NCBI GenBank assembly: GCA_050575255.1
Contig: JBNZDD010013599.1
Location: forward strand, 168,003-232,002
Length of the DNA: 64,000 nucleotides
Direction: 5' to 3'
From: Harriotta raleighana
Taxonomy: Eukaryota
The notes under the pieces were generated by a model. That model was not told the DNA's origin and did no database searches. It was given only the letters and a program-made list of their open reading frames with translations. The position numbers were made by a program, and so were the translations under genes. This document shows positions 54,715 through 59,769 of this stretch, piece by piece (the first letter of the stretch is position 1; each line of letters starts with the position of its first letter).

Positions 54715-55547
54715 ATGATGATGAAATCAGGGTTGCAAAGTTGAAGAGGAAGGTCTTCAGAAGGATGCACGAGAGGGGGTGAAGTACCAAGATTACGGGA
54801 TAGATTTCCAGAGTGGGGGGAGGGACAGGTGCTGAATGCTCAACCTATTATTGAGGGAAGTGCGGGGGACTGAAGCAGGCTGGTGTCTGCTGAGCAGAGG
54901 GAGCAGACGAGCTGATGAGGGGTCAGGTGGGGGGAGCAAGACTCGATTATCAGGAATGGGGAGCCAGTGAAGCTGGTCTAGAATGGGGATGATTGGTTCC
55001 CAAAGCCTGGTGTGGGAGAAGACACAAACAAGCTGCAGAGATAGAAATAATCTGCAGCTTGTGGGAAGTCCAGTGAGCAGGCAGTTGGTGTAGTCAAGCC
55101 AGCATGTGATGAAAGAATAGATCAGTCTCAGGGTCTGTGGTAAATGGCGGAGGTGGGCAATGTTGCGGAGGTGTGGAAAGGCAGAACAAGTCCAGCACGA
55201 TTGCTGGAAGCATAGCTGAGGGTCGAAAAGAACACTCAGCCACTGACACTCAAAATTCATGGCTGAGGTCTTCAGATCACCAGATTGGTATGACTGCAGC
55301 CATGAATTGTGATAGTGTCAGTGATTGAGGCGAGGAGCCAAACAGGAGGACTTCTGTCTTGCCAACATTGAGATGGAGGAAGTTGGCTCTCGTCCAGAAC
55401 TTGATGTCAGCCAGACAATTAGCCAGGAGATCAACGGACCTGGAGTCAAGGGTGGAGATGGCAAGATAGTTAGATGTCATCAGTGGAAATTGACCCAGGA
55501 CTTGCAGATGACATTGCTGATCGGGAGCACGTGTGAGAAGATGGACC
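54715..55547 (-). mobile_element. L2-clade LINE ORF2 3' fragment (decayed reverse transcriptase and C-terminus)
   Basis: CLADIKFWTRANFLHLNVGKTEVLLF and LRNIAHLR...SFITCWLDYTNCLLTGLP...PILDQLHWLPI are typical L2 ORF2 motifs; frameshifted. Confidence 0.85.
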
Positions 55548-56379: not shown

Positions 56380-57208
56380 GTTAGAAAGGCAGAGCGGCCA
56401 CTAGAGGTCCTCTTGCTATATTCCATGATGGAATCTCATTGCCTGATAGATATTCAACAGTTACTATAGTTTGGTGAACAACTAGCCAGCGCTTAATGTC
56501 CAGGTATTGGCACTCACCCTGGCAGTTATTGCTAATACTAATAGACTTGTTCTCCTCTTTATTGAATTCCACTGAGGTTAAGACATGGTGGCCCTTAATA
56601 TATGGCGAGGGAGTTAAACCATGTGCATCTTGTTGTTTATTATCCCTCTTCAACATGCTTCATAACTTTTCAAAAGAAGGCAAACTAAACCGATAAACCA
56701 GTAAAGCAGTTTGTATCATGTCTGCTTTGCAGGTCATACGTACACACAAAAAAAGGGGATTCCATTAACTGCGCTGTTTCTTTTTTTAACAAAAGATGAC
56801 AAATGCAACATAGGAGATTGTTATTGCTGAAGCTAATTAAAATGGTGATTAAAGACATGCACTGCATCGAATTACGAGCTCACTACTGGGGACTTTAATA
56901 ATTAATCAATTAATTAATGTTGGATTAATGTCACTTACCTATTAGCTGTAGTGTCTGGTGGGGGGGCTGTGCTCTTCCCTCTTTATTTGCACCTGTGGCT
57001 TCCCCATCAAGGATTCCTTTCTCATTGGCAGATATAACTCTAGCAGTCAGTCATCCTTGAGGAGATGGAAATTCATTTTTTTTTAACTGGGGACTCGTTG
57101 AGAGTAAAACTAGGTGGTGTTTAGCTGAGTGTTTGAGGAGAGAAACTGTGTGTATTGGTTTCTTTCTTTTCTTTAACTATTTATTAGGTAGGGTGGGTGG
57201 TAGGCAGC

Positions 57209-57254
57209 ATGTCAGCCAGAAAGAAAAAGAGACGTATTCGGTGCTCTGCTCAAG
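57209..57254 (+). CDS. uncharacterised gene, first coding exon (MSARKKKRRIRCSAQ)
   Basis: pyrimidine tract and ttattag| acceptor at 57187; AGC ATG with A at -3; donor AAG|GTAAAG, phase 1. Confidence 0.6.
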
Positions 57255-57799
57255 GTAAAGGAGTGGGAGGGGAGAGGTTGTTGGCATTTAAGAAGATGCT
57301 TGTTAGTGTAAAAAATATTTGAATAGTGAGTGGTACAAATCCGATAGTTGAATGAATATGATGCAGTGAATGTACTTGGACTTTTTATACCCCCACCAAA
57401 CTTACATTTCCTTTAAAACTTCTCCTCCATCTCACTCAGACACTGGTACATTTTTGTTCTCCTTTCCTCCCACCAACCTCAATTAGTGAATTGAAATAGT
57501 ATTATTGCAGGTCCTTAATGCAGGAGCTCTCAACCAATTAGGGAAATCCATCTGGAGGTGAGCCACCTGTGTGAACATGATTCAAACCAGGTCATTCAGA
57601 AATCTCCCCATGTCAGCAACTGAATAAACATTTCCTGGTTTGTTGTTTGATATCAGGATCTTATCCTAGATCCTTGCATCCTCTAATTCACAAATTTGCT
57701 GACATAATCATACCAGATAAGGATTAGACAATTTCCGTTCTTCTTGGCAGTTATAAAACCAACTGTCAGTAATATCTTTTAAGTTTAGAACTCCTACCT

Positions 57800-57969
57800 C
57801 AATCCCCTTCGTCTTGCCCCCTCCTTTCCCATCTTCCGGTTGCCCCTTTCTCTTCGACTGCGCTTACGGTCACATTTCACCTTCCCCCTGGCTCGGCCTC
57901 GGCCATTGTGAAGCCTCTGAGACGCAGCCTGGCATGGACCGCTCTATACAAATGAAAGTTGTTGTTGTA
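57800..57969 (+). mobile_element. L2 LINE 3' tail
   Basis: ttcgactgcgcttacggtc...cccctggctcgg...gtgaagcctctgagacg...ctatacaaatgaaa(GTT)n; paralogous copy at about 33370-33480. Confidence 0.65.
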
Positions 57970-58163
57970 TCTTGTTCAAAACTGACTTTTTTAATAACAA
58001 AAATGCTTCTCTCCAGTTTTAATGGTACACCAGATATCTAATGGTTAACATGAGTATTGCTGTGTATACCTAATGCAGTCATTGTTTGCCATCAAGTATA
58101 AATGAAGCCTGAAATAATTTATAATGGAACATCTTTAACAGTGGCAGTTTTTCTTTGTTTCAG

Positions 58164-58228
58164 AACCATTTAGAATAAGCAGAGAGAGAATTCCAGACGG
58201 TATGGAATTATTGGCATGCAAGTACCAG
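58164..58228 (+). CDS. uncharacterised gene, exon (EPFRISRERIPDGMELLACKYQ)
   Basis: tttctttgtttcag| acceptor; only the phase-1 frame is open; donor CAG|GTGATG, phase 0. Confidence 0.55.
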
Positions 58229-58332
58229 GTGATGTGGAACTTATATTGAAACAATTGCCTAATGTACCAAATATATTTAATGTGGGGAAATAAGGAGGAA
58301 TGAATAATGTGTATTTTTTTCTCTTTTTCAAG

Positions 58333-58386
58333 GAAAAATGTAGAGTAGAATCAAGTACGGAATCTGAATCCGATACTTATATTGAG
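58333..58386 (+). CDS. uncharacterised gene, exon (EKCRVESSTESESDTYIE)
   Basis: ttttttctctttttcaag| acceptor, GAG|GTAATT donor, 54 nt, phase 0-0. Confidence 0.6.
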
Positions 58387-58466
58387 GTAATTATTTCCCC
58401 CTTCCCCTTAAATGCCTAAAATCTTGCCTAATGTTTGATTTAAAAGTTTATTTTGCCCACTTACAG

Positions 58467-58517
58467 GTTTTGATGAACCCAATTGTTGGCTCTGCAAAGA
58501 AACTGGATATAACAAAT
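58467..58517 (+). CDS. uncharacterised gene, exon (VLMNPIVGSAKKLDITN)
   Basis: cccacttacag| acceptor, AAT|GTAAGT donor, 51 nt, phase 0-0. Confidence 0.6.
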
Positions 58518-58579
58518 GTAAGTGTATCGCACTGTTTGAAATTGGAAATAATTCTAATCCTTGCATTTGATGTAGCGCT

Positions 58580-58780
58580 AATAATCCTCCCAAACAAAAA
58601 CCACAATAAAATTGGGTGATTTTCAATCCACGGCTGTTTGTGGGACACTGCTGTGTGCAATTGGCTGCCATGTTTCACCCACAAATATAGTCGATTTGCT
58701 TTACAGTACATTCTGTGAAGCGCTTTGATATGCCTAGAAGACATGAAAAGTGCTAAATCAAATGCAAGGATTATTATATT
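58580..58780 (+). mobile_element. 5'-truncated SINE in the last intron of the uncharacterised gene
   Basis: family core and tail. Confidence 0.8.
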
Positions 58781-58921
58781 ATAACTGGAATTCACCGCAT
58801 TACCAGAAGCCAAAATGCTCATCTTTGTTTCCCTTCAATTTTAATCAAATAAAACTATCTGAAGAGAACCTTTTTGAACTGTTGGAAATACTTTGGAACT
58901 ATTTCTTGGTGTTAATCTTAG

Positions 58922-59512
58922 CATTTGGATCCTTACGACGGAGACTCTGAAAACACTTCAAGTCAATCTGACAGCAGTAAAATCCACCCAGAGGATATCT
59001 ACATTGATGAGCCAGGATATCAATCCCATTCTCTTGTAGCAGCTGATGAAGAGAAGTTGTCAAAATTTCAAGAAGCGTCAGTGATGAATTTTGAACCTGC
59101 GTGCACTTCTATACAACTGAACACCACAGTTACAGAACCTTTGCTTGAGTCAATGCAATCCAGCAGTGAGACTGCACTTCAATCAAAACAAGAGCAGGAG
59201 CAGTTGGAAACCGATCGACTTGCGCCAGGTACAAAATGTGGAGATAATGGTCTGTCACCAGATTTTATTTTTTTTGCTGAGCTCCCTCCAGTAAATATAG
59301 GCAAGGGTGAACTTGCAATTGTGAACATGTTCACTCCAGGAAGCCATGGGGATGATGAACACAGGCATCAAGACTTTCACTTTTGCTCGTTACCAGTCTT
59401 ACAGCCTCCGAGTGAAATTGTTAAAGAAAGGTTGTCGTCAAAAAGAAAGCTGGGGAACCCTTTGATGGATGCAGGCAACGGAAAGATGCGCAAAAAGAAG
59501 TGGTGGGATTAA
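58922..59512 (+). CDS. uncharacterised gene, last coding exon (HLDPYDGDSENTSSQSD...KRKLGNPLMDAGNGKMRKKKWWD*)
   Basis: aatcttag| acceptor in phase 0 with a 197-codon open frame, the longest non-repeat ORF outside the recognised genes; AATAAA at 59764-59769. Confidence 0.7.
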   Translation, partial: HLDPYDGDSENTSSQSDSSKIHPEDIYIDEPGYQSHSLVAADEEKLSKFQEASVMNFEPACTSIQLNTTVTEPLLESMQSSSETALQSKQEQEQLETDRLAPGTKCGDNGLSPDFIFFAELPPVNIGKGELAIVNMFTPGSHGDDEHRHQDFHFCSLPVLQPPSEIVKERLSSKRKLGNPLMDAGNGKMRKKKWWD

Positions 59513-59763
59513 AAAGTTTTTTTATTCTTTCACAGTGGCGAATTGATCTGTAAAAATGAAATTGTAGCACGATTACTTGCTATCCAAAGGGTATGTTGAC
59601 TGCTGGGTGGAATGCAGTTTCTGTGTTACTGTGTTTGATTTGGCTGCGTACAATTGGGAAAACTTCACGTTTTGCTCTTGGCCAGAAAGGCCAAGTGAAA
59701 TGTCAACTACTGTGTATATCTTGAGGCCAAGAATGCCAGATTGCAGTCTCTTCACAAGTTTAA

Positions 59764-59769
59764 AATAAA
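59764..59769 (+). terminator. polyadenylation signal of the uncharacterised gene
   Basis: AATAAA 250 nt after the stop, T-rich downstream. Confidence 0.5.

What the first reader, a model, noticed from the sequence alone, without database searches (positions are those of the whole stretch)
57188..59769. Intact unassigned 5-exon gene between HSP90AA1 and DYNC1H1 encoding a ~268-aa protein with NLS-like ends
Seen in sequence: five exons (57209-57254, 58164-58228, 58333-58386, 58467-58517, 58922-59512) with canonical AG/GT ends join into one stop-free frame, with phases 1,0,0,0 all compatible, followed by AATAAA at 59764. The protein is MSARKKKRRIRCSAQ-EPFRISRERIPDGMELLACKYQ-EKCRVESSTESESDTYIE-VLMNPIVGSAKKLDITN-HLDPYDGDSENTSSQSDSS...SSKRKLGNPLMDAGNGKMRKKKWWD*. 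It has a monopartite NLS-like RKKKRR, an acidic Ser/Glu-rich and probably disordered body with a short DPYDGDSE motif, and a bipartite NLS-like end (KRK-x12-KMRKKK). The ORF track shows only the last exon. I recognise no family. Inference from memory, unverified: mouse carries an uncharacterised testis cDNA gene (1700001K19Rik) at this syntenic position and orientation, while human has no annotated protein-coding gene there. This could therefore be an ancient jawed-vertebrate nuclear or germline gene lost in some lineages.
Basis: partly seen in the sequence, partly recalled or inferred. Interest (0 to 1): 0.75.

Follow-up and report, generated by a model that had tools for sequence, protein, structure and literature searches.

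The report
Hidden vertebrate cousin of sororin
This five-exon gene encodes a protein, predicted to be mostly unstructured, that has relatives from sharks to marsupials and is likely the counterpart of the unstudied mouse gene 1700001K19Rik; it shares two sequence blocks with lamprey sororin, so it is likely an old duplicate of that chromosome-cohesion gene that lost its cohesin-gripping parts.

Summary
The gene model is right. All eight splice ends are AG/GT and the joined frame is open for 268 aa. An elephant-shark RefSeq protein matches all five exons (213 of 268 identical). The gene is already annotated as 'uncharacterized' in many genomes. A profile found 109 relatives in cartilaginous and bony fishes, amphibians, sauropsids, monotremes and marsupials. 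The new result is the single outside hit, lamprey sororin (E about 1e-6). It shares the DPYDGDSE block (18 of 20 identical with coelacanth) and the basic tail, in the same order, and each block beats 4,000 shuffles. The family lacks sororin's YSR motif, KEN box and Sororin box (0 of 114), so it is not a functional sororin. The best reading is a genomic duplicate of ancestral sororin that lost its last exon and now probably acts as a nuclear, motif-based adaptor. Not tested: expression, testis bias, loss in human, jawed-vertebrate sororin sequences and any binding partner.

The parts
57188..57208 (+). Probable 5' untranslated part of the first coding exon, after a pyrimidine tract and AG at 57186-57187; the promoter or an upstream exon was not located
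   Evidence: sequence; in-frame stop just upstream; inferred
57209..57254 (+). Coding exon 1: 15 aa plus 1 nt, basic NLS-like RKKKRR; phase-1 donor
   Evidence: human sororin coding exon 1 also gives 15 aa (PMC4282572 passage)
58164..58228 (+). Exon 2: first half of block A (LAxKY helix, the only confidently predicted helix)
58333..58386 (+). Exon 3: second half of block A (KCxVESSTESES, CK2-type acidic serine tract); skipped in some lizard and shark isoforms
   Evidence: 18/18 identical to C. milii; motif in 107 of 114
58467..58517 (+). Exon 4: variable linker; skipped in a skate isoform
58922..59512 (+). Exon 5 coding part, 196 aa plus stop, mostly predicted disordered; holds both blocks shared with lamprey sororin
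58925..58972 (+). Block B (LDPYDGDSE core), the most conserved motif; 16 residues in a row identical to lamprey sororin
   Evidence: 113 of 114; D, P, Y, G, E invariant in 81 of 81 rows
59441..59512 (+). Block C: basic tail KRK...RKKK (bipartite NLS-like), aligning without gaps to the basic stretch before the Sororin box of lamprey sororin
59764..59769 (+). AATAAA polyadenylation signal (use not shown)

Best explanation
This is a single-copy jawed-vertebrate gene for a protein predicted to be mostly disordered, which likely arose as a genomic duplicate of ancestral sororin (CDCA5), lacks sororin's cohesin-protecting motifs, and likely works as a nuclear adaptor that docks on partners through two short conserved motifs. 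Shown: the gene structure, the family, the two ordered blocks shared with lamprey sororin, and the absence of YSR, KEN and the Sororin box. Predicted: disorder with one helix at residues 28-39. Inferred origin: duplication of the whole gene, probably in an early vertebrate genome doubling. The last exon (Sororin box) was then lost, so the protein stops just after the basic stretch, and YSR and FGF decayed. Block B was kept here and in lamprey sororin and appears absent from the Pfam model of other sororins. Inferred working: the basic ends import it into the nucleus; the acidic serines of blocks A and B are phosphorylated by a CK2-type kinase; the LAxKY helix and the DPYDGDSE motif bind folded partners, most plausibly chromatin-associated ones inherited from sororin. 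It would not block WAPL as sororin does.
For: (1) In a profile search, 110 of 2,761 candidates scored, and the only one outside the family was Petromyzon sororin (E 1.2e-6). E was 5e-7 with a 104-row profile that left out both elephant-shark rows. (2) Block B scored 37.0 bits and block C 15.0 bits; 0 of 2,000 global and 0 of 2,000 local 12-residue shuffles reached either. The best unrelated decoys among 1,563 window frames scored 3.3 and 7.1 bits. hhalign of block C gave E 2.7e-11 (thin lamprey profile, so inflated). (3) Lamprey block B is 18/20 identical to coelacanth, 16/20 to chicken and 16/20 to the window (family median 13). Block C is up to 11/24 identical without gaps, and the B-to-C spacing is 136 versus a family range of 107-180. 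(4) The block is in 9 of 9 lamprey cluster members from three genera, including a 1.2-kb Logan contig, alongside true Sororin_middle and Sororin_C domains, so it is not a one-off gene-model error. (5) Gene architecture: coding exon 1 gives 15 aa here and in human sororin. Exons 1-4 give 27% of this protein, and loss of mouse Cdca5 exons 5-6 removes 'almost 70%'. Five ray proteins and one lamprey isoform both read V-S at positions 28-29 after the KRK anchor, as expected from read-through of a donor in the same register (inferred from protein only). (6) The family tree keeps five taxon groups intact, the minimum of 4 changes. (7) AlphaFold mean pLDDT was 52 with one helix; sororins are described as largely unstructured.
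Against: Block A and the middle region give no signal against lamprey sororin (-0.3 and 1.1 bits, within shuffles). None of the 21 family proteins scanned (two were in both) matched either sororin Pfam model at E up to 10, and the lamprey Sororin_middle match starts at residue 149, after block B. No jawed-vertebrate, hagfish or invertebrate sororin sequence could be examined. The phmmer search of 1.84 billion representatives listed no sororin-like sequence, and the Atlas search of the lamprey segment found nothing. Block C is a generic basic signal with a modest score. The rays share an ancestor, so the V-S match is one observation; 13 of the 18 long tails show something else. The 11q13/14q32 paralogy that would support genome doubling is recalled, and a paper search did not confirm it. 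Nuclear location, phosphorylation and partners are untested.
Confidence: 0.55

Rival explanations
1. The gene is unrelated to sororin by descent. Lamprey sororin captured block B from it (exon shuffling or conversion), or both evolved the motif to bind the same partner, and the basic tails match only as nuclear signals.
For: Only two short blocks match; block A and the middle do not. There is no sororin Pfam hit in the family, and block B was seen in only one sororin lineage.
Against: An 18/20 identity is too long for convergence. The second block is in the same order, spacing and ungapped register, and the first exon has the same coding length.
Confidence: 0.2
2. It is a sororin duplicate that still acts on cohesin, with block B docking on STAG-RAD21 or PDS5, for example as a germline modulator or decoy.
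For: Block B sits in a bona fide sororin. It resembles the human MCM3 segment that binds STAG2-SCC1, which reads D-P-Y-D-F-S-D in the paper's repair template (read by eye).
Against: The aromatic residue of the YxF motif is an invariant glycine here (81 of 81). YSR 0 of 114, Sororin box 0 of 114, strict FGF 2 of 114; no remnant in the window.
Confidence: 0.13
3. Only exon 5 comes from sororin, as a retrocopy or partial duplicate that recruited new exons 1-4.
For: Both shared blocks lie in one intronless exon, and block A on exons 2-3 has no sororin match. Monotreme and marsupial isoforms put a different N-terminus on the same last exon.
Against: The 15-aa first exon and the apparent donor after the basic stretch fit an intron-keeping duplication. 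A paper places YSR and FGF together in sororin exon 5 (primers, read by eye), so a large fifth exon may be ancestral.
Confidence: 0.1
4. It is a non-functional read-through product of the HSP90 gene.
For: The gene starts 2.6 kb after the HSP90 polyA signal on the same strand. The mouse gene is a read-in gene under heat shock. CpG counts near the start are ordinary.
Against: Protein motifs are conserved from sharks to marsupials, and all five mouse-primer differences are silent.
Confidence: 0.02

Closest known systems
Callorhinchus milii LOC103175343 (XP_007886532.1) and other 'uncharacterized' RefSeq models, e.g. chicken LOC423462, coelacanth LOC106704523
   Same: Same gene: 213 of 268 identical to the elephant-shark protein over all exons; the tree follows species groups.
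   Different: No name, domain or function is attached. A search for five of these LOC ids found 0 papers.
Mouse 1700001K19Rik
   Same: Its primers encode block B and a basic tail. It lies downstream of Hsp90aa1 (PMC7249449 legend) and is treated as protein-coding.
   Different: The full mouse protein was not seen and was not returned by the profile search, so it may be diverged or use another N-terminus. The 7 papers naming it (one or more passages read in each) give no function.
Sororin / CDCA5 (lamprey XP_032818591.1; Pfam PF09666, PF25220)
   Same: Block B, the basic stretch, order and spacing of the two, similar length, disorder, 15-aa first coding exon (human).
   Different: No Sororin box, YSR or KEN, and no conserved FGF. 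It has an extra block A that lamprey sororin lacks.
YxF/YDF cohesin-binding motifs of CTCF and MCM3 (PMC9159944, PMC11790891; passages read)
   Same: D-P-Y-D followed by an acidic serine tract, in a disordered region.
   Different: Invariant glycine where the motif needs the second aromatic residue.

Membership tests
Sororin (CDCA5) | C-terminal Sororin box (essential; common to all members per PMC10656103) | tested here: not met
   0 of 114 by pattern, lamprey positive; no PF25220 hit; no remnant in the window
Sororin (CDCA5) | YSR motif | tested here: not met
   0 of 114; present in lamprey
Sororin (CDCA5) | FGF motif | tested here: not met
   strict FGF in 2 of 114, not in the window protein
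Sororin (CDCA5) | KEN box | tested here: not met
   0 of 114; lamprey P0126 also lacks it
Sororin (CDCA5) | K/R-rich stretch just before the Sororin box | tested here: met
Sororin (CDCA5) | Largely unstructured short protein | tested here: met
   predicted only: mean pLDDT 52, one helix (run on the elephant-shark orthologue)
Sororin (CDCA5) | Binds cohesin/PDS5 and antagonises WAPL | not testable with these tools
Genome-doubling paralogue of CDCA5 | Both loci lie in one paralogon with paired neighbours | not testable with these tools
   recalled pairs near 11q13 and 14q32 (PPP2R5B/C, ATG2A/B, MARK2/3, RCOR2/1); not confirmed
Genome-doubling paralogue of CDCA5 | Shared intron positions | tested here: inconclusive
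   first exon 15 aa in both; apparent shared donor register from protein isoforms; no cdca5 DNA seen
1700001K19Rik / LOC103175343 orthologue group | Blocks A, B and C in order | tested here: met
1700001K19Rik / LOC103175343 orthologue group | Position downstream of the HSP90 gene on the same strand | tested here: met
   window; mouse; not checked for other species
YxF cohesin CES-binding motif | Aromatic residues at positions 1 and 3 | tested here: not met
   Y-D-G, with G invariant in 81 of 81
DUF4694 (protein TNT), DUF4502 (SPIDR), RNF111_N | Pfam match | tested here: not met
   Atlas feature scores 0.79-0.85 only; no Pfam hit

The most novel reading that the evidence does not exclude
Ancestral vertebrate sororin carried an undescribed extra module (DPYDGDSE) that lampreys still have. 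Jawed vertebrates split sororin in two: CDCA5 kept the WAPL-blocking motifs, and this gene kept the extra module and still regulates cohesin or chromosome behaviour, perhaps in the germline. That would make mouse 1700001K19Rik an overlooked cohesin-pathway gene.
Probability: 0.2. Interest if true: 0.85.

Novelty: new variant of a known kind. Interest (0 to 1): 0.55.

Why it matters
Sororin is treated as a single gene in vertebrates, and searches of the held library found no vertebrate paralogue. A duplicate conserved from sharks to marsupials, with a motif that only lamprey sororin is seen to share, points to a lost or delegated sororin function. It gives an unstudied mouse gene a concrete hypothesis that can be tested with a peptide pull-down and a knockout. 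If the cohesin link fails, what remains is a well-defined vertebrate family of short-motif proteins with no Pfam model: useful, but ordinary.

Tried and rejected
RNA support: no RNA holder was listed, so no reads were laid; this is no evidence either way. No whole genome was held, so there was no search for this species' own sororin or for further copies, and no dN/dS. Pfam: nothing meaningful. PDB by sequence profile: 0 matches at E up to 10; lamprey sororin gave one chance match. No fold search or complex job was run, because the model is disordered and no cohesin partner was available. ESM Atlas: unnamed chordate clusters at 0.93-0.94 with a low recognition score; no usable hit for the lamprey segment. 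A degenerate DNA pattern of block B in metagenomes gave 1 match on a GC-rich contig of bacterial look, taken as chance. A beta-TrCP-like DSGxx[ST] degron is in 23 of 114 and absent from the window, so it was rejected as a family feature. PIP 0, D-box 3, RVxF 8, PxVxL 11, SIM 11 and LxxIxE 21 of 114 were also not conserved. Papers: 0 for five LOC ids (33), sororin + lamprey (36), the motif letters (48) and CDCA5 + ohnolog (52). The sororin-like/paralog search gave 3 listed, none on a vertebrate paralogue by title and abstract (85). Supplement searches found nothing; the main supplement of PMC11148194 was too large to read and may hold sororin alignments that bear on block B. Testis origin of the deer-mouse EST was not stated in the paper. 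The place of lamprey sororin in the tree is uninformative (long branch 2.14, support 45/62). Earlier scan notes held nothing on this locus.
Full report
Observation. All introns are GT..AG with phases 1,0,0,0, the 807-nt frame gives 268 aa, and AATAAA is at 59764. The splice sites rank above the 92nd percentile of the window's GT and AG sites under a rough recalled scoring. An HSP90 gene ends about 2.6 kb upstream on the same strand, and dynein-1 heavy chain ends about 1 kb downstream on the other strand. No RNA run was listed and no genome was held.

The gene is real and already modelled elsewhere. Exon 5 found 1 protein among 28 candidates, Callorhinchus milii LOC103175343. Its 273-aa form aligns over all five exons with 213 of 268 identities, so the window is probably from another holocephalan (sister to C. 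milii, 100/99). That protein found 12 of 334 candidates and 22 cluster representatives among 1.84 billion. A 23-row profile found 110 of 2,761 candidates. Sharks, rays, sturgeon, teleosts, coelacanth, all three amphibian orders, squamates, turtles, birds, monotremes and marsupials are represented. Nearly all are named uncharacterized, hypothetical or unnamed; one turtle record is labelled ecto-NOX exchanger, probably wrongly. A 36-row tree (one or a few species per group) keeps five taxon groups whole, as expected for one orthologue group. Isoform gaps fall on the window's exon junctions.

Mouse link. PMC7249449 (figure legend) calls 1700001K19Rik the read-in gene of Hsp90aa1. PMC3308053 (two table passages) lists exome primers for it. 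The reverse primer translates as LDPYDGDS and matches window 58924 at 20 of 25 bases (next best 17), with all five differences at third codon positions. The forward primer, reversed, gives PERIKRKKK, close to the marsupial and monotreme tails. The mouse gene therefore carries both ends of exon 5. Since the protein search missed mouse, it says nothing about loss in human. The other five papers naming the gene (passages) are gene or marker lists.

Anatomy. Over 81 aligned rows and 114 proteins including isoforms and fragments, four parts are conserved: a basic N-terminus; block A (LAxKY helix plus KCxVESSTESES, 107 of 114); block B (DPYDGDSE, 113 of 114); and block C (KRK...RKKK, 95 of 114 by a strict pattern). 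AlphaFold on the elephant-shark protein gives mean pLDDT 52 and one helix, residues 28-39. There is no Pfam or PDB match. CK2-type S/T-x-x-D/E sites cluster at 44-52 and 86. This is the layout of a short-motif adaptor; nuclear import and phosphorylation are inferred.

The unexpected hit. The last of the 110 hits is Petromyzon marinus sororin isoform X1 (E 1.2e-6). It is a true sororin (PF09666 at 149-203, PF25220 at 262-283, YSR and FGF present), and it carries block B at 97-113 in 9 of 9 cluster members from three lamprey genera. A profile of 104 family rows still scores it at E 5e-7; this left out both elephant-shark rows, 7 long, fragmentary or oddly labelled rows, and the extra isoforms. 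Block by block, B gives 37.0 bits and C 15.0 bits, unreached by 2,000 global and 2,000 local shuffles each. A (-0.3) and the middle (1.1) give nothing. Unrelated window frames reach 3.3 and 7.1 bits. Lamprey block B is 18/20 identical to coelacanth and 16/20 to chicken, so the match is to the family consensus and not to one lineage. Block C aligns without gaps at up to 11/24.

Architecture. Family proteins end a median of 24 residues after the KRK anchor (109 of 114 anchored), whereas lamprey sororin runs on for 53 into the Sororin box. A lamprey isoform diverges after position 27 with V-S, and 5 ray proteins read V-S at the same position; 13 other long tails differ. I infer a shared old donor site, from protein alone. 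PMC4282572 (passages) says human sororin's first coding exon gives 15 aa, as here. PMC4801952 (passages) says removing mouse exons 5-6 deletes almost 70% of the protein; here exon 5 is 73%. I did not see any cdca5 gene structure directly. From memory, CDCA5 at 11q13 and this locus at 14q32 lie among paired genes; one paper search did not confirm this.

Membership versus likeness. PMC11148194 (passages) and PMC10656103 (passages and the first part of section 10) define sororins by the Sororin box, a basic stretch, FGF, YSR and KEN. The family meets only the basic stretch and disorder, and the window has no remnant of the rest. It is not a sororin in function and should not block WAPL. Block B resembles the cohesin-binding YDF segment of MCM3 (PMC9159944 passage; PMC11790891 passages), but has an invariant glycine in place of the key aromatic residue. 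PMC12759081 (passages) concerns a different sororin cofactor and did not bear on this locus.

Verdict. My estimates: real gene about 0.97; orthologue of 1700001K19Rik about 0.93; some shared ancestry with sororin about 0.75; still acting on cohesin about 0.15-0.2. The main gap is that only lamprey sororins could be examined. Searches found nothing in the held library on the family or on a vertebrate sororin paralogue; subscription journals and the unread supplement of PMC11148194 could hold more. Interest 0.55.

Noticed in passing
P0126-P0134 (lamprey sororin, residues 97-113): Lamprey sororin has no KEN box and carries the DPYDGDSE block, which lies outside both Pfam sororin matches; I found no description of it.
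   Followed up: partly
P0137, P0140, P0146 (marsupial and monotreme isoforms): A different N-terminus without block A is joined to the last exon. Placental forms may use this, which could explain why the profile missed them.
   Followed up: partly
window 56398-56409 (+): CTCF-like site (1 mismatch) between the HSP90 gene and this gene. The window has 6 such matches against 1.3 expected, all on the + strand.
   Followed up: no
window about 54790-55500 (-): Stretch that looks by eye like a decayed LINE reverse-transcriptase end just after the HSP90 polyA signal; no Pfam hit at E 0.01.
   Followed up: partly
window 59500-59520: The holocephalan WWD ending looks like a lineage-specific frameshift: another frame continues with I-K, as in shark and ray tails.
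   Followed up: partly
family alignment, amphibians, sturgeon and teleosts: A DSGxx[ST] phosphodegron-like motif in 23 of 114 proteins, absent from the window, suggests regulated turnover in some lineages.
   Followed up: partly
P0079: A Platysternon family member is labelled 'ecto-NOX disulfide-thiol exchanger 1', probably a mislabel.
   Followed up: no
P0027: The leopard gecko model has a second basic-tail-like segment before block A, suggesting a local duplication or a fused gene model.
   Followed up: no
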